A stretch of 64,000 nucleotides of DNA from a phage: the sequence record NC_129898.1; one strand, given 5' to 3'. The number at the start of each line of letters is the position of its first letter. The stretch's first letter is position 1. Under the pieces are notes generated by a model. That model ran no database searches. It worked only from the letters and a program-made list of their open reading frames with translations, and was not told the DNA's origin. The translations under genes and the position numbers were made by a program. Positions 3,606 through 26,076 of the stretch are shown piece after piece.

Positions 3606-5673
3606 ATTCATGGCATCTGCATACAACCGTTTCGGTGAGCCAAACCCGAAAGCAACCAAATATAAAAGTGGGGGGAGTGTGAAACGAGACTATCGTGATG
3701 AAAAAGAGGTCGAAACTGTAGAGACTGTTTTAGAAAATACTAAAATTGTCCCTGTCCCACAACAAAATATCGGACTAATGGCTGCACAATACTTTGGTGT
3801 GCGATCAGCATTGTCTCAAGAAGATGGGGTAACGGTCACTGCAACATATTTCCCATATTACGACCGCTACGGTAATCTATCTGGCTTTAAAAAGCGCGAC
3901 TGGACAATCCCTAAAGAGCAAAGAGGCCATTTCTCAGTTGTTGGCATAGTAAAGGCCAACTCTCAGATGTTTGGTCAAAAGCTGTGTGCATCCTCCAACA
4001 ACCGCAAGCAGATTAACGTTTGTGAGGGGGAAGGGGATGTTATTGCAGCATGGCAAGCTGCATATCAGATACAAGTGAAAGGTATTCTCACCAATGCTAA
4101 AGCCCCCGCGAAGGTGAAGCAGTGGGCTAAAGAAGTTCAGGATGGGATCGATGCAGTTATCAACGGCGGCGATCTGGCAGGAAAACCCTGCCTGCCTTTT
4201 GTTGGAATTAACTGCGGGTGTGCAAACGCCGTAGATACTTTTGCTAACAATGAGAAATTTATCCGTAGCTACGGAACAGTGGTCCTTGCAATGGACAACG
4301 ATGCAGCTAACGAGGTAGAGAAGCAAAAACACGTTATCAAAGGTGTTGAGGCCACACATAATATCGCAGCATTTTTGATGGCTGATAACGTTTACCACGT
4401 GGAATACCCAGGTGAGGTAAACGACCCTGATGGTGTAAAAGATATTCGTGACATGCTGAAGGCTAAAAAGCTGGAAGATATTGTCAACATGTTCCGTCAC
4501 CCAGTTAAATATGTGCCCGATGCTGTATCTGATTTAGAAGACTTCTCCATTGAGTCTCTTCGTAAGAAGACTTCCAATGGCGTGGATATCAGTGCGGAGT
4601 TCCCTAAATTGCAGAAGATGCTGAAAGGGCTCCACAAAGGCACCTTGATGATGCTGACAGGTCCATCTGGCGGTGGTAAAACAACTGTAGCCAAGAAGCT
4701 GGAACACTGCATCGCAAGATACTTGATGGATCCAACATGCCCTAAAGCTGATGATTATGAAGAGGATGATCGCCTGTGTCTGATTCACCTTGAAGAGGAT
4801 CCTGAGGAAGCAATCAACTCTCTGTACGCTAACCAGTTGGGGTTTGATGTTAAAGAGTTTGTTGAAGACCCTAGTCAGTTCCTGACCGACCAGGAGCACG
4901 CTGAGATTCATCAATCTTGGGCCAAGGCCGGAAAAATCAAAGTGTTCAAGCATTTCGGCTCCATCCCTGTGGATGAGCTGATCACTAAGCTTAAACAAAT
5001 GGTGTGCCTGTATCACTGCCGTTACATTGTGCTGGATCACTTGTCTATGGTGATTTCAGGGCTTAATGTTAAGGATGAGCGCAAAGAACTTGACATGGCT
5101 ATGACCCAACTAGCTGCGTTCTGTAAGCAGTTTAATGTGTTTATCCTGGTGATTGCTCACCTGAAACGTACAGAGATTGTACCTCCTAAGGATAAGGATG
5201 GGAATCCGTTGCCTTTCTGGTACCCTGTACGAAAAGAGAACCTTCGTGGTAGTGCCGGATTGGAGCAACTCAGCTGGGTAGTTGTTGGGGTAGAAGCAGA
5301 AGAGATGGTGGATCGTTCTCGTGGGCGTGTCCGTCTAGTAGGTCTTAAAAACCGTCCAGCAAAAACGTTAGGTATTGCGGACACTTTAGTTATGGATCCG
5401 CACACAGGCAAGTTCCACGATGCCAGCAATTGGTACTGGGATAAAGAAATGCAAATGTTTACAGACGGAGAAGGTGGGGAGGTTGTTTGGAGACCTCAGG
5501 CTATGTTTGAGGATCAGGATCATGCAGTTGTGGAAACACCTATGGGCAAGGTTGTGGCTGATAAGGTTGTAACTCCTACTGTTACCCCAGTTGACACACA
5601 GGAAGACCTTCAGTATGATGATCCGTCCTCTAACCACGTTCCTGGTTTTGAAGACGACGAAACACCTTTTTAA
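3595..5673 (+). CDS. DNA primase-helicase (TOPRIM plus T7 gp4-like helicase)
   Basis: TOPRIM-like CEGEGDV and MDNDAANE; Walker A LTGPSGGGKTT; IVLDHLSMV like T7 gp4 helicase motif. Confidence 0.85.
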   Translation: MGSKFMASAYNRFGEPNPKATKYKSGGSVKRDYRDEKEVETVETVLENTKIVPVPQQNIGLMAAQYFGVRSALSQEDGVTVTATYFPYYDRYGNLSGFKKRDWTIPKEQRGHFSVVGIVKANSQMFGQKLCASSNNRKQINVCEGEGDVIAAWQAAYQIQVKGILTNAKAPAKVKQWAKEVQDGIDAVINGGDLAGKPCLPFVGINCGCANAVDTFANNEKFIRSYGTVVLAMDNDAANEVEKQKHVIKGVEATHNIAAFLMADNVYHVEYPGEVNDPDGVKDIRDMLKAKKLEDIVNMFRHPVKYVPDAVSDLEDFSIESLRKKTSNGVDISAEFPKLQKMLKGLHKGTLMMLTGPSGGGKTTVAKKLEHCIARYLMDPTCPKADDYEEDDRLCLIHLEEDPEEAINSLYANQLGFDVKEFVEDPSQFLTDQEHAEIHQSWAKAGKIKVFKHFGSIPVDELITKLKQMVCLYHCRYIVLDHLSMVISGLNVKDERKELDMAMTQLAAFCKQFNVFILVIAHLKRTEIVPPKDKDGNPLPFWYPVRKENLRGSAGLEQLSWVVVGVEAEEMVDRSRGRVRLVGLKNRPAKTLGIADTLVMDPHTGKFHDASNWYWDKEMQMFTDGEGGEVVWRPQAMFEDQDHAVVETPMGKVVADKVVTPTVTPVDTQEDLQYDDPSSNHVPGFEDDETPF

Positions 5674-11036: not shown

Positions 11037-11328
11037 AAACATTACACCAGAAGGATTCCTGAAAGTATACCGTGAACTATTGTATACCACAGAGGATAGT
11101 GTTCTAGAGTACCCAGAATATCTTTTGCTGTATAAGTATCTGCAGGAAGCTGGTGAAAATCTTCCAATTAGCGCAGAAGGTGGTCCAAACTGGGTCTACA
11201 GTGCATGGAGAAAGGTTGACATTCTCCCAGATCCCGGTAAAGATATGGTAGTTTGGCAGCTTATCAACAACATCGGGATTCCAATCTTTGATGAAGCTGT
11301 TAAAATCTATTTTGAACTTGACGATTAA
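11026..11328 (+). CDS. hypothetical protein
   Basis: Overlapping ORF; start 11008 or 11026 uncertain. Confidence 0.45.
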   Translation: MKTENITPEGFLKVYRELLYTTEDSVLEYPEYLLLYKYLQEAGENLPISAEGGPNWVYSAWRKVDILPDPGKDMVVWQLINNIGIPIFDEAVKIYFELDD

Positions 11329-11344
11329 TATCAGGAGACTTAAG

Positions 11345-11590
11345 ATGGCTGAAGTAGTTGCTCGTGCAGGACAGAAAGTGCGTTGTGTTGAAGTGGGTTT
11401 TGGTGGCAAAGGGTGTCAAAACTTGACTCAAGGTAAGGAATACACTGTTATTTCTGGCGGTGGTGACGAAAGTATTGTGTTCGATGATCATATTCTGGAT
11501 GCTGAAAACTTTGAAATAATTGACGATGATGGTGATCCGATCACCTGCCTGCTGAACGGGAGTTGGGGAACTTTCGAAGTAATTGGCTAA
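11345..11590 (+). CDS. hypothetical small protein
   Basis: CAGGAGA RBS; IDDDGDPITCLLNGSWG motif related to KDDxG family. Confidence 0.5.
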   Translation: MAEVVARAGQKVRCVEVGFGGKGCQNLTQGKEYTVISGGGDESIVFDDHILDAENFEIIDDDGDPITCLLNGSWGTFEVIG

Positions 11591-11627
11591 CAAATACCTG
11601 TTGTAATTTACAGAAGGAGATGCTAAA

Positions 11628-12038
11628 ATGGTGTCTCCTTTATGTTGTTCAAATAAAATCGGAGATTCCACAATGGAACAAATGAACGATCAAGCGTCGG
11701 TTGCGATGAACGAGCAAGAACAACCTCAAGACTTTTTCTTAGGGTTAAGCAAAGATCAAGTGTCTCTTCTGTTGGTACTTTCTTCTTTCATGGGGAGACT
11801 TCAGGAGCTTACACAACAACCGGAGGCTGAACAGTTATTTCAGGCCCTGCGTGAAGAAGAAAAATATCGTCGTTTGGATTATGCCTTAGGTTGGGTAGCT
11901 CAACAACGAGATATGCTAATGGCCCTTTCTGGGACAACAAGTTTTGCAATGGGACTGTTGGCTCAAGTCCAGGACAAATTAATTCAGGCAGGGTTTGCAA
12001 ACACAGCGACCACTAACGAAGAACAAGGAGACAAATAA
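11628..12038 (+). CDS. hypothetical protein (136 aa)
   Basis: ORF ends TAATG overlapping next gene; no recognisable motif. Confidence 0.45.
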   Translation: MVSPLCCSNKIGDSTMEQMNDQASVAMNEQEQPQDFFLGLSKDQVSLLLVLSSFMGRLQELTQQPEAEQLFQALREEEKYRRLDYALGWVAQQRDMLMALSGTTSFAMGLLAQVQDKLIQAGFANTATTNEEQGDK

Positions 12039-13309
12039 TGAGCGTTATTCAACAATTCACCAACCCGATGAATCCGCGTGAAACTGTTTTACTGGCTCAC
12101 GGTATGATTAAACGTGTCAGCATCAAGCCTATCAAAGGTGCTGATCCTACAACAGGTATTAAAACCACTGTGTGGCAAGGTAAGAAAATCGAGTCCAGTC
12201 ACACCATCTCTTTACTGATTTCTGAACTGGATTCTTCTGATAACCTACTTCAAGGTGGTGAAGAAGTTTGGATCAGCATGGGTGATAAATTGCTCAAACC
12301 CGGTCATCAAGATTCCGTCTCTGTTAAAATTGATGACAAGTGGGAAACAGTAACGCCAGGATGGATCGTAAATATCCCTTTAAAGGCAAATGAGCATAAC
12401 GGTAAGACCTACTACAAAGGCTCATTGGCTAAAATGGTTAAGCTGGGGGCAGGAGATGCTCCAGCAGCCCCACAGCAACAAAAACAGCAACAAGGCACAC
12501 AATCACAAGGCCAGAAGCAGAAACCTCAGCAGAATGCCAATCAGGACGTTTTACGCATCTATGGTGATGTGACTCAGATTGTTGGTAACGTGGTTACTGT
12601 CAATGACCACAAGATTGGCGAAGGTGCTATGGTTGTCTCCGATGAGCAGCTTAAAGACCTGGTGGTTGGCGGTCGTGTTGCAGCTATTGTTGACAAAGAC
12701 ACCGGGAATATTATCAGCGGCTTCAAGGCCTACCCGCCTAAAGCAGAGAACGGTACACAAGGTTCTGGTGGTAAGCGTAAATCCTCTTACGACCCCATCG
12801 GTGTAGAGACAGGGCACAGTATCAATGCGTTGCAGATCATTCTGGATCGCGGGTTTAAGATTGACAGTCCTTTAGATGTGGCTAAAACACTGCACGTGGT
12901 CACCATCGAGCTTAAGAAAGAGTACGCTCAAGCCACCAACCGAACTGAAGATGAAGTAGGTGCCAGTGTTGGTAATGCGGTATTGAACGCTTGTCGCCGT
13001 ATTGACAAGAAGACGAAAGTTGATGATTTTGCAGTAGCAATTACTGCAGAGGCAAAAGATGTCTTGACTAATCTTGCTGAACCGTTGTATGATTGGATCA
13101 AGAACGGTGCTGGAGCCACTGACCATCAAGAGCCTCAAGCTGCCAAACAGGAAGCCTCCCCACAGCAAAACACTGTAGACGCCCCTCCTGTAGATGATGC
13201 GGAAGATGACCCAATGGATCAGAATCCAGCACAGTATGACTTCTGTGATGACATACCTTTCGCTCCGGTGGGTTTGCAATATGGCAAAAGTAGAATCCAC
13301 GCATTGTAA
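12038..13309 (+). CDS. putative single-stranded DNA-binding protein (SSB-like acidic DDIPF motif)
   Basis: Q-rich linker; acidic region ending DFCDDIPF (matches bacterial SSB tail DDDIPF) but frame continues 16 codons; position after polymerase as in T7-like modules. Confidence 0.4.
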
Positions 13310-18082: not shown

Positions 18083-18410
18083 GATATTTATGGTAGTATT
18101 TATTTTAAAATTATAAAAATTTTAGGCGATGAGGGAAAATATGTAATGGATTTTCCCTTATTTATCAGATATTTGCAGATATTTGGAAATCCTTAGAAAA
18201 TCAGAAAATGGATCGAAAACTAAAATGGATTTTTTCAAGACAGGCACGATAAGCTGCGCTGCTCATTCTATCGTTCGCACCGTACTTCAAATCACCATTC
18301 CAGATTTTCCGCACATACTCTCACCCCTCTGCCAGAACTTTCCCAACTTACCTTCAGCCTTTTATGACAATAAGTTAATTATTATCAGTAAGTTTTGATA
18401 CATCTCTCTC

Positions 18411-18590
18411 AGTACTCGATCTGTTTTTCATTTCAAAGATTGGATTTTCTGAAAATTTTTCTCGATAAATTTTTCGGTACTCGATCTGTTTTTCGTTTTC
18501 TGAATCGGATTTTCTTGAAATTGGTCCAGCACCAGATCTAAAATTTTTGGGAACGAAAGCGATTTTTCGTTTTCAGAAATGGATTTTTAA
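18411..18590 (+). repeat. tandem imperfect direct repeats (about 60-70 bp period, 3 copies)
   Basis: GTACTCGATCTGTTTTTC[A/G]TTTC...GGATTTTCT at 18411 and 18477, diverged copy at about 18559. Confidence 0.6.
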
Positions 18591-18733
18591 AATTTCTATA
18601 TGGGAATATTTTATGAGGTATTATTTTATATAGAATTGTCACGGTAGGTAATTAGCATGCTAACTAAATTTATGAAATGCGAAAAGTTCTCATTTAGAAT
18701 TTTGAATGATAATCATTCTCGTTTGCAGAATAA

Positions 18734-18758: not shown

Positions 18759-19064
18759 GGCCCCTACTGCCCCGGCTTGTTATTATAGTATCACACAGGA
18801 CAAAGAAAGCAAGAAGTTTTTGCATAAATTTTTAGACGATAATGATAATCGTTCTCATTTCATGCAGCGCCCATCCCCGGTGGTTGTCTCCCCCGTCACC
18901 GGTGCCTGCCGTCCTTTCGATATGTATATTGTGCCACCTGGCGGGGCCGCTGTCAACACTTTTCAAAAAAATTCTAACCTGATGCGCTAACCGTTGCAAC
19001 CTGGCGGGGCCAGCCTGGTGGGCCTATGCTATAGGATAGTAACAATTGAAGAGGAGGTACAAAA

Positions 19065-19986: not shown

Positions 19987-20068
19987 AAATCATTGACACG
20001 CTGCAAAATTCAAGTAAACTAGACACAAAAGGCGGGAATGTTTCCCGCCAACACAAAGGAAAAAGATC

Positions 20069-20473
20069 ATGAATAAGAACGTACGCCGCATCATGAACGA
20101 GTTGGCAAACGATGAAAAAATTATTGACATGCATTTGATCAACATTTGCCGCCGTTGTGTAACATATAACAACCGCGCCGCAAAAGCGCGTGAGATGAAC
20201 GCAAAAGGCACCTTAAAGCCATTCCAGGTGGTGGTAAAGGCCATTAAAAATGTAACTAATACGGCAAACCAGGTACAGGGGAACACCAACGAGAGTACCA
20301 ATATTGATCCGGCTTACATCATGAAACGGATCCGGACCTATAAGAACAAAGAGCAAGTGTATAATGTTATAGACTGGTTGGATTCTATGGGCGACGTGGT
20401 GTACAATAGATTCTCGGCAGCTATTGAGATCCAGCTTGACAGGTTGGACGGTAAAGTACTGAAAACTTATTAA
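20069..20473 (+). CDS. hypothetical protein (134 aa)
   Basis: Promoter 19992-20019, hairpin GGCGGGAATGTTTCCCGCC, CA-rich leader, RBS. Confidence 0.5.
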   Translation: MNKNVRRIMNELANDEKIIDMHLINICRRCVTYNNRAAKAREMNAKGTLKPFQVVVKAIKNVTNTANQVQGNTNESTNIDPAYIMKRIRTYKNKEQVYNVIDWLDSMGDVVYNRFSAAIEIQLDRLDGKVLKTY

Positions 20474-20521
20474 GTTTATTTTTAGATGGCCTTGACTCTA
20501 GGGCCATCAATAAAGTAAACT
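20474..20521 (+). repeat. conserved intergenic hairpin/promoter-like module (copy 1 of 4)
   Basis: ATTTATTTTTAGATGGCCTTGACTCTAGGGCCATCAATAAAGTAAAC; stem GATGGCC/GGCCATC with TTGAC in loop. Confidence 0.55.
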
Positions 20522-20553
20522 AGTCTCAACTAAGCGAAAAAGGGGGCTTTAAG

Positions 20554-20673
20554 ATGAGCACTACACGCCAATACACAAAGGTAACTATTATCGTTTGCGT
20601 TGTCGGTTACATCCTGGCGCAAATGTTAATGAGTAGCGCCAACAGTTTTGCAAAATTTTTCTTAAATTTTTAA
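20554..20673 (+). CDS. hypothetical small membrane peptide (39 aa)
   Basis: AAAGGGGG RBS; hydrophobic core. Confidence 0.35.
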   Translation: MSTTRQYTKVTIIVCVVGYILAQMLMSSANSFAKFFLNF

Positions 20674-20701
20674 TTGACAAGTAAATCTCAATAAGTATAC
20701 T
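20674..20701 (+). promoter_or_regulatory. sigma70-like promoter
   Basis: TTGACA - 16 nt - TATACT; near-identical promoter at 22512-22539. Confidence 0.55.
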
Positions 20702-20752
20702 TAAACACGTAAACGGGAAAACTTCCCAGAACACACAAAAGGAGAAAACACC

Positions 20753-21094
20753 ATGACTACTATGACCGCCGCAGAAAAAGCTATGCAGATCGCCGCGCTG
20801 AAAAAACAGATCGCAGACCTTGAGAACAAGATCGATAACTTTGAAATCGACGAGGACAAGTACGACGAAAACTATAATGAATGGCTAGACGAGATCCACG
20901 GCGAAATTATGATCGGTAACATTTCTTTTCTTCCGTCGCGTATCCTCAAAGAGTTAGATCCTATTGCTTACCGCTGCGGATTTAGCGATTACATCGATAG
21001 CCTGGATATTGAGGACGATGAAGAGTACCAAGAATTGCAGATAGAGCTGGGAGAAGTGAAAGAGGAGCTTTCAAAGCTGGAAGAGAACGAGTAA
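20753..21094 (+). CDS. hypothetical acidic coiled-coil protein
   Basis: Promoter, hairpin, leader, AGGAGA RBS. Confidence 0.5.
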   Translation: MTTMTAAEKAMQIAALKKQIADLENKIDNFEIDEDKYDENYNEWLDEIHGEIMIGNISFLPSRILKELDPIAYRCGFSDYIDSLDIEDDEEYQELQIELGEVKEELSKLEENE

Positions 21095-21095
21095 A

Positions 21096-21143
21096 ATTTA
21101 TTTTTAGATGGCCTTGACTCCAGGGCCATCAATAAAGTAAACT
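21096..21143 (+). repeat. conserved intergenic hairpin/promoter-like module (copy 2)
   Basis: Near-identical to 20474-20521. Confidence 0.55.
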
Positions 21144-21181
21144 TTACACTGTTAACACTGAACTAATGAGGAGTTAAAACT

Positions 21182-21427
21182 ATGGCAGCACTAATCACCA
21201 AATATTATGCGCCTACCAACACAAAAAGCGCCCGTATCATGGTAAAAGGCTTCGGACGTAAAAAGGTTTACGCCTGGGACTATTCCCTAGATATGGAAGA
21301 CAATTATACCAACGTAATGACCGATTTTATTAATGATCTGAATAAACAGATCTTAACCGACTACAAAGTGACCGATATTGCTTACATAGGTGAAGGCGGG
21401 ATCTGTTTTGTAGGCATTGTGAAATAG
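21182..21427 (+). CDS. hypothetical small protein
   Basis: GAGGAG RBS. Confidence 0.5.
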   Translation: MAALITKYYAPTNTKSARIMVKGFGRKKVYAWDYSLDMEDNYTNVMTDFINDLNKQILTDYKVTDIAYIGEGGICFVGIVK

Positions 21428-21470
21428 TTATTTTTCGGTGGTCCTGGTTGCAGGGCCATCTATAAAGATA
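21427..21470 (+). repeat. conserved intergenic hairpin module (diverged copy 3)
   Basis: TTATTTTTCGGTGGTCCTGGTTGCAGGGCCATCTATAAAG. Confidence 0.4.
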
Positions 21471-21502
21471 ATTTATTAACACCATGAAAGGAGAAAGTAC
21501 AC

Positions 21503-21856
21503 ATGATCAGCGGGGCTAGTTTTATTATTGGCGCTATTGCTACGGCTTTAATTGTAAACAAGATCCAGGATAAAAAGGAAAGAGGAAGTACCGCCCTTGC
21601 AGAATATCCATTTTGGACATTTAACGATAACGAAGATTATATTATAAAGTATAAAAATAAAGAAGGCGACCAAGTAACACCGCGACCGATCCCGGCTTAC
21701 AAAATGCAGGAAACACTATACCGCTTGGAGGCGGGGGGCGCAAAAATTGTTGACTTTTGGGGATACGACCACACAGATCAGGAAGTTATAAAGCGCCGTA
21801 TCCGGGCTATTCAGGCCAATATTGAGGTTAACAAGGGGGGAATATATGAAAATTAA
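21503..21856 (+). CDS. hypothetical membrane-anchored protein
   Basis: N-terminal hydrophobic helix; AAGGAGA RBS. Confidence 0.5.
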   Translation: MISGASFIIGAIATALIVNKIQDKKERGSTALAEYPFWTFNDNEDYIIKYKNKEGDQVTPRPIPAYKMQETLYRLEAGGAKIVDFWGYDHTDQEVIKRRIRAIQANIEVNKGGIYEN

Positions 21857-22043
21857 TTTCGAGAAAATTGTAAAGCGCCCTCATGATTCCGAAGAGTTGC
21901 CAGAACGCCGACAGCGCAACAATAAACTGAATAAGCCAAAAAGGTTTGGGAAGATCTGGCGGAATCATTATGATCGTAAATTGCCCGGCCTACTTTTGGA
22001 ACGTGAACGACAGGCAGAACGATACCGCCATAAAGACAAATAA
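21846..22043 (+). CDS. hypothetical basic small protein
   Basis: ATG 21846 after AAGGGGGG; Arg/Lys-rich. Confidence 0.4.
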   Translation: MKINFEKIVKRPHDSEELPERRQRNNKLNKPKRFGKIWRNHYDRKLPGLLLERERQAERYRHKDK

Positions 22044-22051
22044 CAACCAAC

Positions 22052-22080
22052 GCCCCGCCATTGTGCGGGGCTTTTTATTT
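22052..22080 (+). terminator. intrinsic terminator
   Basis: CCCCGC-CATTGT-GCGGGG hairpin followed by CTTTTTATTT. Confidence 0.55.
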
Positions 22081-22261
22081 CTATCCTACGAATAGCGCCC
22101 CTGGTTGGCCCTGTAAGCGCCAAAAAGGCCCCCACCTATGCAATCGCCCCCTTTAACCTGAAAACATCGCTCAGGGCCGTTTTATAGCGTTAAAAATATC
22201 ATTGACATCGTCAACAGGTTAGCTATACTAACCACATCAAAGAGAGAAAGGAGTAAACGCC

Positions 22262-22522
22262 ATGCGTAAATTAAAAAATTTTGATAAAGTTGATGTTATC
22301 CTGAATAATTTTTACTACTGCAACAACAAGGCTATTTGGTGGCGGGATAGTTCCACCGATAAAGTCAAGGCGCGCTTTCTTCAGGGGCACTGGCAAGGCC
22401 GCCCAGTGATTAAAATCATGGGGCAATTGGTAGCGTTTAAAAATTGCCGCCGTGTTGATGACGTTGAGGAGATTTTAAACATTTTGCGCCACAATAATTT
22501 AAAAAATAGTGTTGACAAGTAA
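22262..22522 (+). CDS. hypothetical small protein
   Basis: Promoter-like TTGACA at 22203; GGAG RBS. Confidence 0.45.
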   Translation: MRKLKNFDKVDVILNNFYYCNNKAIWWRDSSTDKVKARFLQGHWQGRPVIKIMGQLVAFKNCRRVDDVEEILNILRHNNLKNSVDK

Positions 22523-22539
22523 ATCTCAATAAGTATAAT
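22512..22539 (+). promoter_or_regulatory. sigma70-like promoter (consensus -10)
   Basis: TTGACA - 16 nt - TATAAT; followed by hairpin GGCGGGAAAACTTCCCGCC. Confidence 0.6.
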
Positions 22540-22596
22540 TAAACACACAGGCGGGAAAACTTCCCGCCACTAACAAAGAAAACAGGAGAAAATATC

Positions 22597-23220
22597 ATGA
22601 CCACCGTTAACATTACCACAGGTTACAATTTATCTTTCGACGTGCTGACCGACGAACAAAAAGAAAAAGCCATTGAAATGGTCCGCGAAAGAGAAGAACG
22701 CAGCGGGGATGATTTTTTCGCAGAAAATGTAATTGATTACTACAAAGAATATATCTTTCCAGAGTACGGCCTTGAGGATACCGAAGTACATTGGTCCGGC
22801 TTTTGGTGTCAAGGCGATGGCGCATCGATTAGTGCTGAAAATGTAGACTTAGAAAAATTCTTGCGTAAAGTCAAGGCCCTGACCAAGTTCAGATCAATTC
22901 GTCACTTGTTCGGCACAATGCACGATGGCGAACTATCCGCCAGTGTTGAACGCGACAAGTACAGCCATTACAGCCATGAAAACACTGTAAGCGGGTACAT
23001 TGATACCACTTGGATAGATCTGACCGCCAAACAAGAAAACAAAGTGGAAGATCTGGAAGAATTGATCACCGAGACGGTACGGGAGCTATCCCGCAAGGTT
23101 TACGTAGACCTTGAGGAGGCCTATCTAGAACAGTTCACCGCAGAAAACCTGATCGGCCTTATTCAGGCCAATGATTGGCGGTTTGATGTCGATGAATATG
23201 GTGAGATGACTTTTTCATAA
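22597..23220 (+). CDS. hypothetical acidic protein (207 aa)
   Basis: Largest ORF of the small-gene block; promoter, hairpin, leader, AGGAGA RBS. Confidence 0.55.
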   Translation: MTTVNITTGYNLSFDVLTDEQKEKAIEMVREREERSGDDFFAENVIDYYKEYIFPEYGLEDTEVHWSGFWCQGDGASISAENVDLEKFLRKVKALTKFRSIRHLFGTMHDGELSASVERDKYSHYSHENTVSGYIDTTWIDLTAKQENKVEDLEELITETVRELSRKVYVDLEEAYLEQFTAENLIGLIQANDWRFDVDEYGEMTFS

Positions 23221-23313
23221 ATAAAGTGTTGCAATAACCTAAAAACCTGCTATATTAAAACTCAAGGCGGGCGAGACGTTTGCCCGCCAACACAAAACAA
23301 AGAGGATAACATC

Positions 23314-23694
23314 ATGAAAAATACTACCAAGGCTATTGACACCGTTATGTTTAACCTGGTTACATTCCGTGAAGATATGAAAGATCTTCCGCGTGAAACA
23401 GTGTGCGACCATATCGAAAACTATCGCAAACTAATCAAAGAGTTGCCTTTAAAACGTGATCAATATGCGGCTAACGCCATGCTTAATGCCATGATCAAAA
23501 AGATGATCCAGTGTGATTTAACCCTGGCCTATGATTATGCAGGCGGTCGTTTTGCAGTATACAATCAGCCCGTGCCCGGTATGAGTACCACCGAAGAATT
23601 GCACGCGCTCAATCTAAAACAGGACGTGTGGGATAGTATGCCTCGCGTGGTGGTATGGGTAGAAAGCGGAAAGATTTACGGCGATAATTTTTAA
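23314..23694 (+). CDS. hypothetical protein (126 aa)
   Basis: Promoter-like TTGCAA/TATATT, hairpin GGCGGGCGAGACGTTTGCCCGCC, RBS. Confidence 0.5.
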   Translation: MKNTTKAIDTVMFNLVTFREDMKDLPRETVCDHIENYRKLIKELPLKRDQYAANAMLNAMIKKMIQCDLTLAYDYAGGRFAVYNQPVPGMSTTEELHALNLKQDVWDSMPRVVVWVESGKIYGDNF

Positions 23695-23758
23695 TCAGGT
23701 AGCAGGCGGCATATTTGCCGCCTTATTGTTGATCAGAACTGCAAAAGAGGTACATAGA

Positions 23759-24130
23759 ATGGAATTTATTATTTTGGCTGTATTGGTTGCCTTATTTAAC
23801 GCCTGGATCGCTGGCAAGATGGGAAGATCCGCCTTTTTATGGTTTATTATATCTATTTTCCTGGGGGTGGTTGCAACTATTGTATTGGTTATCCTTGCAA
23901 TTGTTGACAAGGGGAATAATAGAAAGGGTAAAGTATTTTCAGACCTGTACGACGCTCAAACTTTTGTTAACGCCTATTATAGTGATCTCCCAGTCTCCCT
24001 ACGTTGCAGCCTTGCACAACAGGTTTTCGATGAAGCTAAAACCAGAGACCACGCCCATGAGATTTGTTTAACTGAGGCGGATCGCTTATTTGAGAGGAAT
24101 AGAAAATATGTGGGCCAGCCGTTTAAATAA
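23759..24130 (+). CDS. hypothetical membrane protein
   Basis: Two predicted TM helices; ATG 23759 after AAGAGG. Confidence 0.45.
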   Translation: MEFIILAVLVALFNAWIAGKMGRSAFLWFIISIFLGVVATIVLVILAIVDKGNNRKGKVFSDLYDAQTFVNAYYSDLPVSLRCSLAQQVFDEAKTRDHAHEICLTEADRLFERNRKYVGQPFK

Positions 24131-24349
24131 TACCACGTTAATTAATCCATTTAGTGAAGATTTGAGGCCAGCCGCCTGGCGGGATGGATTCAATAACGAA
24201 AAATTTACTTTTAGGCCTGATCTTGAGGAATTTTATAACAATGGATCGAACAACGACAGAGATAATTTTTCTTGCGGTGTGTGTCGTGATCGGACTACTG
24301 GGAGCCATTGCAAACCACGTAACCGCTAACAGAAGGAAAGGGGGAGACG

Positions 24350-24469
24350 ATGACACCCAAGGATAAGCCCCGCACCGATAAGGCGCGCCGTGTTATGGTA
24401 TGGCTGGAGATCATCGCCCTTGAAATATTGTTAGGCGTAGGGATGTATTTTATCGCCGTACGTACCTGA
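24350..24469 (+). CDS. hypothetical small membrane peptide (39 aa)
   Basis: AGGGGGAG RBS; hydrophobic C-terminus. Confidence 0.35.
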   Translation: MTPKDKPRTDKARRVMVWLEIIALEILLGVGMYFIAVRT

Positions 24470-24615
24470 TAACGGCCCCCGATCCCTGGGGGCCTGACTT
24501 TTTTCAAAAAAATTTTTCTTCCGGGGTGTTGCAATCCGGTCCGGGATATGGATAATAACAATCAACGGGGAGACACTCCCCACCACACAGACAAAGTTCC
24601 AAAAGGAGAAACAAA

Positions 24616-24816
24616 ATGAGCAACAATATCCGCGTTATTAATTTCAAAAAAGAAGAAAAAATCGCTGTGCTGGTTGATGGTCAAGAAATATTCAAGGGGT
24701 ATTATGAAGATCATCAGGCGGCGATCAGTATTACCCGCGTAATTGGTTACCATAATTTTTACCCTCAAGGCGCTGAGGCAGCAGTAAAACGAATTAAAGA
24801 GATCGTAGGCCTGTAA
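24616..24816 (+). CDS. hypothetical small protein
   Basis: Hairpin GGGGAGACACTCCCC, CA-rich leader, AAGGAGA RBS. Confidence 0.5.
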   Translation: MSNNIRVINFKKEEKIAVLVDGQEIFKGYYEDHQAAISITRVIGYHNFYPQGAEAAVKRIKEIVGL

Positions 24817-24817
24817 A

Positions 24818-24866
24818 ATTTATTTTTAGATGGCCTTGACCCCAGGGCCATCAAATAAAGTAAATT
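24818..24866 (+). repeat. conserved intergenic hairpin/promoter-like module (copy 4)
   Basis: Near-identical to 20474-20521. Confidence 0.55.
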
Positions 24867-24908
24867 TAAACCCTGCTAAAATAATCAGTGCAAAAAGGAG
24901 CAATGATC

Positions 24909-25208
24909 ATGTTTATACCCGCCAATAATCTTTATTTCTTTGATGGTCAGATCGTAGACGGCGTGGAAGTTGAGATCACTGGATGTCAAGGCGGCCAGGT
25001 AATGATCTTCCGCAATAGTGCCTTTAACGATCATTTTATTACAATGACTGTGGAAGTTAAAAAGCTGGATGATAAGAAAACACTCATTGACTATTCCGTG
25101 AAAGATCATCCAGACTACCACATGATCTATGGTGATTTGTGCATTGTTGACCGTGACAAGGTGGGCGGCATTGTGATCGCTATTGTGAACGATGTTTTCT
25201 CTGAATAA
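24909..25208 (+). CDS. hypothetical small protein
   Basis: AAGGAG RBS; start ATG 24903 or 24909. Confidence 0.45.
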   Translation: MFIPANNLYFFDGQIVDGVEVEITGCQGGQVMIFRNSAFNDHFITMTVEVKKLDDKKTLIDYSVKDHPDYHMIYGDLCIVDRDKVGGIVIAIVNDVFSE

Positions 25209-25430
25209 TTCCGGCAAATGATGCAAAATAAGGCCCATGGCAGGGCCTGCAGCGATATAATCACACAAAGGCTATGCGGTTGCATGGCCTTTTTTATTTT
25301 AGCGCTACAGCGGCCCCCAAGGCGTTTAAAAAATTTTTAAAAGTACTTGCATCAAGTCCGACAATATGGATAATAAGACTTATCAGGGGGCGGCCCCCAA
25401 TCATTAACCGGATAGATAGGAGTTAAAATC

Positions 25431-26012: not shown

Positions 26013-26076
26013 CAACAAACAACAATCTAACAAAGCATAATACATAAGGCGGCAATGATGCCGCCAACATGACAGA

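What the first reader, a model, noticed from the sequence alone, without database searches (positions are those of the whole stretch)
20474..24866. Conserved 45-48 bp intergenic module present four times
ATTTATTTTTAGATGGCCTTGAC(T/C)C(T/C)AGGGCCATCAATAAAGTAAAC follows the stop codons of ORFs ending at 20473, 21094 and 24816, with a diverged copy at 21427. It forms a 7-bp stem with TTGAC in the loop; the T-run precedes rather than follows the stem, so it is not a standard terminator. It could be a promoter regulated by structure, an RNA processing site or a protein binding site. Promoters at 20674 and 22512 are also near-identical, so whole expression cassettes seem to have been duplicated.
Basis: seen in the sequence. 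Interest (0 to 1): 0.5.

Follow-up and report, generated by a model that had tools for sequence, protein, structure and literature searches.

The report
Repeated intergenic RNA hairpin in rV5-like phage
Four copies of a ~48-nt element between small early genes of an rV5/FV3-like E. coli phage fold on the mRNA strand into a conserved two-tier hairpin built like phage T7's RNase III processing sites; it sits in promoter-derived sequence and is also a joint where gene cassettes are lost or exchanged.

Summary
There are four same-strand copies (20473-20521, 21095-21143, 21426-21473, 24816-24867), each starting at a stop codon, with none expected by chance. A covariance model finds no others in the window or in the rest of the closest relative's genome. 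The window is a Vequintavirus (rV5/FV3-like) early region of unknown-function genes.

The stem is not 7 bp. The sense-strand RNA forms a 10-bp upper stem with G·U pairs and a tetraloop, a 2x3 internal loop, and a 10-bp A/U lower stem. Across 31-37 distinct instances 98.5-98.8% of pairs hold. Four lower-stem pairs change on both sides. Upper-stem changes occur only through G·U. The opposite strand pairs worse.

The architecture and the UA/UG "distal box" position match T7 early RNase III sites. There is no U-tail, so it is not a terminator.

The 3' flank is homologous to the spacer and -10 of the phage's own sigma-70 promoters (TTGACY-N18/19-TAAAYT). The element therefore resembles the promoter/stem-loop cassettes (PeSLs) of T4-like phages. 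Like them it marks recombination joints: a c1-c2 deletion in phage ime, and a cassette transferred into a Justusliebigvirus.

Best reading: an intercistronic mRNA processing/stability hairpin, probably cut by RNase III, possibly with weak promoter activity. Function is untested.

The parts
20473..20521 (+). Copy c1, whole two-tier hairpin. Lower stem 20473-20482 pairs with 20512-20521. Internal loop is 20483-20484 opposite 20509-20511. It begins on the last base of stop codon TAA 20471-20473. The next start codon is at 20554.
   Evidence: 78.5 bits on +, 35.2 on -
20485..20508 (+). c1 upper stem-loop: GAUGGCCUUG-ACUC-UAGGGCCAUC. It has 10 bp including U.G and a G.U closing pair. The UA/UG pairs next to the closing pair match the RNase III distal box.
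   Evidence: mapping to T7 R1.1 and PMC1540722
21095..21143 (+). Copy c2, whole two-tier hairpin. Upper stem-loop is 21107-21130. Internal loop is 21105-21106 opposite 21131-21133. Lower stem is 21095-21104 with 21134-21143. By analogy with T7, the predicted 3'-side cut is 21133|21134. The next start codon is at 21182.
   Evidence: 80.5 bits
21426..21473 (+). Copy c3 (diverged). Upper stem-loop is 21437-21460: GGUGGUCCUG-GUUG-CAGGGCCAUC, 10 bp with two G.U pairs. Lower stem is 21426-21435 with 21464-21473. The TTGAC motif is lost but the structure is kept. The next start codon is at 21503.
   Evidence: 61.8 bits
24816..24867 (+). Copy c4. Upper stem-loop is 24829-24852 with loop ACCC. The 3' internal loop is 4 nt (24853-24856) because of one extra A. 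The lower stem has 11 bp. The next start codon is at 24909.
   Evidence: 72.7 bits
20492..20521 (+). Promoter-like reading of c1: TTGACT-N18-TAAACT. The same layout is at 21114-21143 (c2). In c4 it is TTGACC-N19-TAAATT at 24836-24866. The AATAAAG-TAAACT part is homologous to the spacer end plus -10 of true early promoters.
   Evidence: 9/12 matches; this match class is found only modestly more often than in shuffles, 54 vs 32.9; P20674, P22512, P19993; Justusliebigvirus promoters; PhagePromoter annotation in Gotham
19993..20049 (+). Context: promoter TTGACA-N16-TAAACT plus a 5'-UTR hairpin (20031-20049). This drives the unit that contains c1. Equivalent units start at 20674-20701 (containing c2 and c3) and 24529-24556 (containing c4).
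22052..22071 (+). Context: U-tailed intrinsic terminator that ends the c2/c3 unit. The terminator at 25267-25292 ends the c4 unit. These show what real terminators look like in this phage.

Best explanation
The element works mainly as RNA.

Setting (inferred from promoter and terminator positions). Host RNA polymerase starts at the strong early promoters and reads through the element, because no terminator lies in between.

Structure (shown by folding and covariation). On that sense-strand transcript the element forms a ~22-bp interrupted hairpin. It has a 10-bp G/C-rich upper stem with a tetraloop, a small asymmetric internal loop, and a 10-bp A/U lower stem that starts at the stop codon of the upstream gene.

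Function (inferred). I propose it is an intercistronic processing and stability signal of the T7 early RNase III site type. Host RNase III would cut in the 3' side of the internal loop, about 13 nt after the tetraloop (...CAUCAAU|AAAG...). That would leave the upstream cistron with a protective 3' hairpin and separate it from the downstream cistron.

Origin (shown by homology). The sequence derives from, or has recombined with, the phage's sigma-70 early promoters. It keeps a TTGACY-N18/19-TAAAYT skeleton, so weak internal promoter activity is possible.

Recombination (shown by comparative genomics). Because the copies are nearly identical, they also act as portable homology where unknown-function gene cassettes are deleted or exchanged, as T4 PeSLs do.
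For: Structure:
- All four copies fold into the same two-tier hairpin, at -21 to -23 kcal/mol with z about -6.5. The opposite strand gives -8 to -17.
- All 37 distinct instances from the window, 14 relatives' loci and 6 new metagenome variants fold the same way.
- On 31 distinct sequences 98.5% of cells pair, against 35-56% when partners are slid. Four of the 10 lower-stem pairs show changes on both sides (GC/AU, UA/CG, UA/AU, AU/UA). The upper stem is 100% paired, and its 4 variable pairs change only through G.U. The covariance-model alignment gives the same result.
- Strand asymmetry: 98.5% paired on + against 87.1% on -. Mean folding energy is -24.1 against -15.0 kcal/mol. Model scores are 62-85 bits on + against 30-44 on -.

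Structure kept where promoter geometry is not:
- c3 lacks TTGAC.
- The -35 to -10 spacer is 18, 19 or 20 nt in different copies.

Distinct class:
- These are the only intergenic + strand hairpins in 12-30 kb that are neither U-tailed terminators nor post-promoter 5' hairpins.
- They sit between cistrons of promoter-to-terminator units.

Match to T7:
- The T7 early RNase III sites R0.3, R0.5, R1, R1.1 and R1.3 fold to the same layout: a 9-10(-13) bp upper stem with G.U pairs and a 3-5-nt loop, with an internal loop and A/U lower stem resolved for R0.3, R0.5 and R1. They are themselves a repeated intergenic module.
- Read from the loop, T7 R1.1 is CG, UA, UG, AU, CG, UG, GC, GC, AU, AU. The module is GC, UA, UG, CG, CG, GC, GC, UA, AU, GC.
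- So the distal box UA/UG is at the same position and on the same strands. Proximal-box position 2 is A-U, which is not an inhibitory pair. The internal loop falls where the scissile position lies (with PMC1540722).
- c3 has UA/CG at the distal box, as T7 R0.5 does.
Against: - No transcript-end data exist. I found no Vequintavirus transcriptome.
- There are only four copies, all within 4.4 kb. That looks more like local duplication than a genome-wide processing code.
- Proximal-box positions 1 and 3 are U-A and G-C, not the preferred G-C and A-U (PMC1540722). In c3, position 2 is G.U.
- TTGAC is invariant in all c1, c2 and c4 orthologues, including two loop bases, while the next base takes all four values. 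That is what a -35 hexamer would show.
- One c2 lineage always carries a mismatch in the outer lower stem. One c3 variant is an uncompensated C x A.
- The sequences are closely related, so the compensatory changes are few independent events.
- The c1 copy of phage Gotham lost its 3' arm, so at least that copy is dispensable.
Confidence: 0.45

Rival explanations
1. It is chiefly an internal sigma-70 promoter of the PeSL type. A T-rich UP-like tract, a TTGACY -35, an 18-bp spacer and a TAAAYT -10 give the downstream gene its own transcript. The stem-loop is an attenuator for upstream transcription, or a by-product.
For: - The 3' flank AATAAAG-TAAACT equals the spacer end plus -10 of true promoters: P20674 and P22512 (CTCAATAAG-TATACT / TATAAT), P19993 (CAAG-TAAACT-AG), UAB_1 (AAAATAAAG-TAAACT) and muut.
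- In KKE7M the module replaced the -35 and spacer of a native promoter. It now sits 11 nt upstream of that gene's 5' hairpin, the same distance as after real promoters.
- TTGAC is invariant while the sixth -35 position is free.
- PhagePromoter called the c2 and c4 orthologues promoters.
- PeSLs have the same parts and were shown to work as promoters and attenuators (PMC2839356).
Against: - The match is only 9/12, with a spacer of 18, 19 or 20. The phage's real promoters use 16-17.
- The scan finds 54 such matches against 33 expected by chance.
- c3 has no -35 yet keeps the stem through G.U and compensatory changes, including one inside its would-be -10.
- Promoter function does not explain covariation between bases about 45 nt apart.
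- There is no U-tract for attenuation.
Confidence: 0.25
2. It is a passive RNA hairpin with no endonuclease cut. It could be a barrier to 3' exonucleases that stabilises the upstream cistron after decay starts downstream, as REP or intercistronic stabilisers do. Or it could be a binding site for an RNA-binding protein.
For: - The structure is conserved and sense-strand specific, and it lies directly after stop codons.
- The phage also caps its transcripts with 5' hairpins, which suggests selection on mRNA stability.
Against: - A barrier needs only the G/C stem.
- The conserved, covarying A/U lower stem, the fixed internal loop and the distal-box match are unexplained.
Confidence: 0.15
3. It acts as DNA. 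It could be a palindromic operator (GATGGCC-N10-GGCCATC) for a phage regulator that overlaps a weak promoter. Or it could be a single-strand DNA hairpin used in replication or recombination.
For: - The inverted repeat brackets the -35-like hexamer.
- Copies coincide with recombination joints.
Against: - The right half-site is invariant, while the left varies by A>G and C>T only. That keeps RNA pairing but breaks the DNA palindrome (2 of 7 positions in c3).
- The U.G pairs are invariant.
- The minus strand pairs at 87% against 98.5% for the plus strand.
- Joints are expected between any near-identical repeats.
Confidence: 0.05
4. It is a functionless remnant: duplicated scraps of promoter and hairpin sequence spread by recombination in a plastic region.
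For: - There are only four copies, all local.
- Copies are lost in some phages: the ime deletion and the Gotham c1 5-nt deletion.
Against: - The structure is kept in every one of about 120 genomes' worth of sampled variants, apart from that one deletion.
- Compensatory and G.U-only changes occur between c3 and the other copies, and within c3.
Confidence: 0.07

Closest known systems
Phage T7 early RNase III processing sites (R0.3, R0.5, R1, R1.1, R1.3)
   Same: - A repeated, conserved ~45-60-nt module between early cistrons transcribed by host RNA polymerase.
- A 9-10-bp upper stem with G.U pairs and a 4-5-nt loop, an internal loop, and an A/U lower stem.
- UA/UG distal-box pairs in the same place as in R1.1. 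c3 has UA/CG, as R0.5 does.
- T7 sites also sit next to minor host promoters B and C and next to T7 promoters.
   Different: - No sequence homology.
- The internal loop is smaller: 2x3 against about 4x5.
- Proximal-box positions 1 and 3 are non-canonical.
- The lower stem includes the stop codon.
- Cleavage is untested.
PeSLs (promoter-early stem-loops) of T4-like phages RB49/phi1, T4/PST, KVP40/nt-1 (Arbiol 2010 PMC2839356; Comeau 2014 PMC4122927)
   Same: - An intergenic cassette in a region of unknown-function genes.
- An A/T-rich tract, a sigma-70-like -35 and -10, and a stem-loop overlapping the promoter, followed by a Shine-Dalgarno sequence and a start codon.
- Near-identical copies a few hundred bp to a few kb apart.
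- Recombination between copies deletes or moves gene cassettes.
   Different: - A different phage subfamily.
- The promoter match is weak and its spacer is too long.
- The stem-loop encloses the -35 and extends into a second stem.
- PeSL stem-loops are described as G-tract/C-tract terminators or attenuators. This one has no U-tail, and selection is visibly on the RNA fold.
Rho-independent terminators
   Same: A G/C-rich hairpin right after a stop codon, flanked by A/T tracts.
   Different: The T-tract is upstream and the A-tract downstream on both strands. Genuine terminators in the same region have U-tails.
Bacillus phage SP82 early-mRNA RNase III sites (from my own knowledge, not checked here)
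   Same: Several highly similar stem-loop processing sites spaced along early polycistronic mRNA.
   Different: A different host and enzyme. This is recalled from memory only.

Membership tests
E. coli RNase III substrate of the T7 R-site type | [quoted passage not shown] | tested here: met
   A 10-bp upper stem plus one non-canonical position, and a 10-bp lower stem. The 11-bp rule comes from PMC1540722.
E. coli RNase III substrate of the T7 R-site type | An internal loop at the scissile position, which gives a single 3'-side cut | tested here: met
   A 2x3 loop (2x4 in c4, 1x3 in c3) lies directly below the 10-bp stem. The T7 sites fold the same way.
E. coli RNase III substrate of the T7 R-site type | Distal box UA/UG | tested here: met
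   c1, c2 and c4 have U-A then U.G next to the closing pair, on the same strands as T7 R1.1. c3 has UA/CG, like T7 R0.5 (PMC1540722).
E. coli RNase III substrate of the T7 R-site type | Proximal box: position 1 G-C, position 2 A-U or U-A (G-C inhibitory), position 3 A-U | tested here: inconclusive
   Position 2 is A-U, which is acceptable. Position 1 is U-A and position 3 is G-C, both non-preferred. In c3, position 2 is G.U (against PMC1540722).
E. coli RNase III substrate of the T7 R-site type | Actually cleaved by RNase III | not testable with these tools
   I found no transcript-end data for Vequintavirus.
PeSL (promoter-early stem-loop) | An intergenic repeated motif in a plastic region of small unknown-function genes, ending at the next gene's Shine-Dalgarno sequence and ATG | tested here: met
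PeSL (promoter-early stem-loop) | A strong sigma-70 consensus promoter with an A/T-rich upstream tract | tested here: inconclusive
   The match is 9/12 with an 18-20-bp spacer, and c3 has lost the -35. There is homology to real promoters' spacer and -10.
PeSL (promoter-early stem-loop) | A stem-loop overlapping the promoter | tested here: met
   The hairpin encloses the -35 and the spacer.
PeSL (promoter-early stem-loop) | Recombination between copies creates indels or cassette exchange | tested here: met
   - Phage ime and contig L004 carry one hybrid c1/c2 copy and lack the interval between.
- KKE7M gained a cassette whose 3' joint is the module.
PeSL (promoter-early stem-loop) | The stem-loop terminates or attenuates transcription, and the promoter is active in vivo | not testable with these tools
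   This needs reporter assays. There is no U-tail.
Rho-independent terminator | A hairpin followed by a U-tract | tested here: not met
   The sequence after the stem is AAUAAAGUAAAC on + and UAAAAAUAAA on -. The scan does not list the modules as terminators.
Any Rfam family | A covariance-model match | tested here: not met
   No hit on the modules at E<=1 in 18-28 kb.

The most novel reading that the evidence does not exclude
One 48-nt sequence would do three jobs.

- On DNA it is a weak sigma-70 promoter.
- On read-through RNA it is an RNase III-type processing hairpin. Its lower stem contains the upstream stop codon, so a terminating ribosome would gate folding and cleavage.
- At the population level it is the portable joint that moves unknown-function gene cassettes, even between phage subfamilies (Vequintavirinae to Stephanstirmvirinae, as in KKE7M).

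That would make it a regulatory unit that couples translation, mRNA processing and gene mobility.
Probability: 0.15. Interest if true: 0.6.

Novelty: new member of a known kind. Interest (0 to 1): 0.4.

Why it matters
rV5/FV3-like phages are common E. coli O157 and therapy-candidate phages, and their gene regulation is almost unstudied. The original genome paper lists promoters and terminators but not this element.

A conserved RNA structure with a specific predicted cleavage position gives a direct experimental handle on how early polycistronic mRNAs are partitioned in these phages.

The element also shows that promoter/stem-loop cassettes which shuffle unknown-function genes are not confined to T4-like phages. 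Such a cassette crossed between two myovirus subfamilies.

Practically, several public records label these hairpins or their neighbours as promoters or terminators. That annotation needs revisiting.

Tried and rejected
- Rfam scan of 18-28 kb: nothing on the modules.
- Intrinsic terminator: rejected, because there is no U-tail on either strand and real terminators nearby have one.
- Double-stranded DNA palindrome or operator: disfavoured by one-strand-only G.U variation.
- More copies: the covariance model with filters off found only the four in the window (next best 14 bits) and none in the remaining 87 kb of the HMD-6 genome.
- More distant relatives:
  - A 61-nt BLAST finds only about 120 Vequintavirus records plus KKE7M.
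  - tblastn with the gene between c2 and c3 finds homologues outside the genus only in unrelated phages.
  - IMG/VR and metagenome pattern scans returned only rV5-like contigs (mostly from ~137-kb assemblies) with no new structural classes.
- Literature: there is no Vequintavirus transcriptome, and no mention of the motif in the rV5 paper or its promoter/terminator table.
- Flanking proteins: no Pfam hit reaching the curated cut-off, and all in PHROGs of unknown function.
- Sequence homology to T7 R-sites: none beyond a shared GGCC core, so I treat it as coincidence.

Full report
**What the window is.** A 5-kb query around the finding matches 122 phage records. Nearly all are Vequintavirus (rV5/FV3-like E. 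coli myoviruses of about 137 kb), and the best is HMD-6 at 97.6% identity. Annotation of HMD-6 and other relatives shows the finding lies in a long + strand block of small hypothetical genes, downstream of the replication genes. All eight flanking proteins I tested fall in PHROGs of unknown function, and none has a Pfam match reaching the curated cut-off.

**Checking the observation.**
- The 24-nt core occurs three times exactly, with 0 expected by chance. The repeat finder adds the diverged fourth copy.
- All four copies are on the + strand and begin at or within 3 nt of a stop codon. The next start codon lies 30-45 nt downstream.
- A covariance model built from 31 distinct instances finds only these four in the window with filters off (62-80 bits; the next best hit is 14 bits). 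It finds none in the other 87 kb of the HMD-6 genome.
- BLAST shows about three detectable copies per genome in about 120 genomes.

**Anatomy.**
- As sense-strand RNA each copy forms a 10-bp upper stem. In c1, c2 and c4 it is GAUGGCCUUG / YAGGGCCAUC. It includes a U.G pair, and in c1 a G.U closing pair, and it carries a tetraloop.
- Below it lies a small asymmetric internal loop: UA opposite AAU.
- Below that is a 10-11-bp A/U lower stem, made from the upstream T-run and the downstream AAAGUAAAY.
- Folding energy is -21 to -23 kcal/mol, with z about -6.5. The opposite strand reaches only -8 to -17.
- The diverged copy c3 has a different 5' arm (GGUGGUCCUG) and loop but the same 10-bp stem, achieved with two G.U pairs. 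Its lower stem is also re-paired.

**Is the fold under selection?** I collected every instance from the window, 14 relatives' loci and two viral-metagenome contigs. This gave 50 instances, of which 37 were distinct, and all fold identically.
- On a gapless 59-column alignment of 31 distinct sequences, 98.5% of cells form standard pairs. With slid partners the figure is 35-56%.
- Four of the ten lower-stem pairs change on both sides: G-C/A-U, U-A/C-G, U-A/A-U and A-U/U-A.
- The upper stem is 100% paired, and its four variable pairs vary only through G.U.
- The model-derived alignment of 37 distinct rows gives the same picture.
- On the opposite strand only 87.1% of cells pair. Mean folding energy is -15.0 kcal/mol against -24.1.
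- Caveats:
  - The sequences are close relatives, so these are few independent events.
  - One c2 lineage always has one outer mismatch.
  - One metagenomic c3 is an uncompensated C x A.
  - Phage Gotham's c1 lost its 3' arm through a 5-nt deletion.
- Overall, a sense-strand RNA structure is well supported. A double-stranded palindrome is not.

**Transcriptional context.**
- The region consists of units with this order: strong sigma-70 promoter (spacer 16-17), a G/C hairpin about 10-12 nt after the -10, one or more genes, and a U-tailed terminator.
- The four modules lie inside such units, between cistrons. c1 follows the first gene of the 19993 unit. c2 and c3 follow the first and second genes of the 20674 unit. 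c4 follows the first gene of the 24529 unit.
- They are the only intergenic + strand hairpins in 12-30 kb that are neither terminators nor post-promoter hairpins.
- The tail after the stem is AAUAAAGUAAAC, so they are not intrinsic terminators.

**The promoter connection.**
- The module's 3' flank (TCAATAAAG-TAAACT) is homologous to the spacer end plus -10 of the phage's own promoters. These are CTCAATAAG-TATACT / TATAAT at 20674 and 22512, and CAAG-TAAACT-AG at 19993.
- It is also homologous to promoters of phi92-like phages: muut has TTGACA-N16-TAAACT and UAB_1 has ...AAAATAAAG-TAAACT.
- Together with the TTGAC in the stem and loop, this gives TTGACY-N18/19-TAAAYT, which the scan scores at 9/12. 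PhagePromoter annotated the c2 and c4 orthologues in phage Gotham as promoters.
- For promoter function: TTGAC is invariant in c1, c2 and c4 orthologues, while the sixth position takes all four bases.
- Against promoter function:
  - The spacer is 18, 19 or 20 in different copies, whereas real promoters here use 16-17.
  - c3 has lost the -35 but not the stem.
  - One compensatory change lies inside c3's would-be -10.
  - Matches of this quality are found only modestly more often than in shuffled sequence: 54 found against 33 expected.

**Recombination joints.**
- Phage ime and contig L004 have a single hybrid copy, with the c1 5' flank and the c2 3' flank. They lack the 39-aa gene, the promoter and the 113-aa gene that lie between c1 and c2.
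- Justusliebigvirus KKE7M belongs to a different subfamily. It carries the rV5-type 113-aa gene (93% amino-acid identity) together with an identical module.
- Compared with the empty site in muut, the 5' joint in KKE7M lies in a promoter's -10 region. The 3' joint lies in the module's GTAAAT | TATATTCATT.
- This is the behaviour described for the promoter/stem-loop cassettes (PeSLs) of T4-like phages. [quoted passage not shown]

**Comparison with T7 RNase III sites.** I folded the five T7 early intergenic regions that carry R0.3, R0.5, R1, R1.1 and R1.3. The site positions are from my own knowledge, because the record does not annotate them.
- Each gives a 9-10(-13) bp upper stem with G.U pairs and a 3-5-nt loop; an internal loop and A/U lower stem are resolved for R0.3, R0.5 and R1.
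- The sites share sequence with one another, so they too are a repeated intergenic module in host-transcribed early mRNA.
- I used the numbering in Pertzev & Nicholson 2006 (PMC1540722). In it an 11-bp helix separates the cut from the tetraloop, the distal box is UA/UG, the middle box is U12:G27 / C13:G26, and proximal-box position 2 is 9:30.
- Read from the loop, R1.1 is CG, UA, UG, AU, CG, UG, GC, GC, AU, AU, then the loop. The module reads GC, UA, UG, CG, CG, GC, GC, UA, AU, GC, then the loop.
- The distal box is therefore identical in sequence, position and strand. Proximal-box position 2 is A-U, so the strong G-C antideterminant is absent. The internal loop sits where the scissile position is.
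- Proximal-box positions 1 and 3 are not the preferred pairs.
- c3 has UA/CG at the distal box, as T7 R0.5 does.
- By analogy the 3'-side cut would fall 13 nt after the tetraloop: CAGGGCCAUCAAU|AAAG.

**Most likely mechanism.**
- Shown: a conserved, strand-specific two-tier RNA hairpin lies between cistrons. It has homology to promoter sequence, and it plays a role as a recombination joint.
- Inferred:
  - Read-through early transcripts fold the hairpin.
  - Host RNase III cuts at the internal loop.
  - The upstream cistron keeps a protective 3' hairpin, and the downstream cistron is uncoupled from it.
  - Because the lower stem begins on the stop codon, a terminating ribosome would transiently melt it. 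This last point is speculation.
- Weak internal promoter activity is compatible with this reading. It has precedent in T7, where the minor host promoters B and C lie beside R0.5 and R1.
- I put about 0.45 on the RNA processing/stability reading with RNase III as the enzyme. I put about 0.25 on promoter or attenuator function being the main role. The remainder goes to a passive barrier or protein site, a DNA-level role, or no function.

**Novelty.** Neither the rV5 genome paper nor its promoter/terminator table lists the element. I found no Vequintavirus transcriptome and no other description of the motif. Rfam has nothing. The kind of element is known from T7-type processing hairpins and PeSL-type cassettes. 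This is therefore a new member in a new phage group, with a well-supported structure and an untested function.

Noticed in passing
window 20031-20049, 22550-22568, 23266-23288, 24563-24585, 26048-26065: Each strong early promoter is followed about 10-12 nt after its -10 by a G/C hairpin of the GGCGGGAAnnTTCCCGCC type. These are probably 5'-end mRNA stabilisers. The EdH4 and Alma records annotate several of them as terminators, although they have no U-tail on the coding strand. The same hairpin type follows promoters in Justusliebigvirus (L006 about 11303-11323, L016 about 924-945).
   Followed up: partly
window 18838-18856 and about 18706-18724: A Fur-box-like sequence, GATAATGATAATCGTTCTC, has 2 mismatches to the 19-bp consensus (0.07 matches expected by chance). 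There is a weaker second copy. Each is followed by CCCCGGTGRTTGTCTCCC, in a poorly coding stretch upstream of the early genes. Iron-responsive control or Fur titration by a phage would be unusual.
   Followed up: partly
window 18402-18587: Three tandem copies of about 65 bp (GTACTCGATCTGTTTTTCRTTT...GGATTTT) lie in a non-coding stretch. They could be iterons or an origin-like array. The rV5 paper marks a 'non-coding' box in its map.
   Followed up: no
L006 (KKE7M, PQ356295) 11590-12048, compared with L016 (muut) 884-930 and L015 (UAB_1) 884-1215: An rV5-type cassette (-10, 5' hairpin, 113-aa gene, module) is inserted into a promoter of a phi92-like phage from another subfamily. At the same site UAB_1 carries a different small gene. 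This is a clean example of cassette exchange at promoter sequences.
   Followed up: yes
L008 (Gotham, MT682716) 4469-4522: The c1 orthologue has a 5-nt deletion (GGGCC) that removes the 3' arm of the upper stem. This is a natural knock-out of one copy.
   Followed up: partly
window 24888-25208, compared with HMD-6 12194-12517 and rV5 gp173/gp172: The gene downstream of c4 is intact in the window and in EdH4 (99 aa). In rV5 it is split or called differently, and HMD-6 annotates an opposite-strand ORF there. This is either an annotation inconsistency or a frameshift.
   Followed up: no
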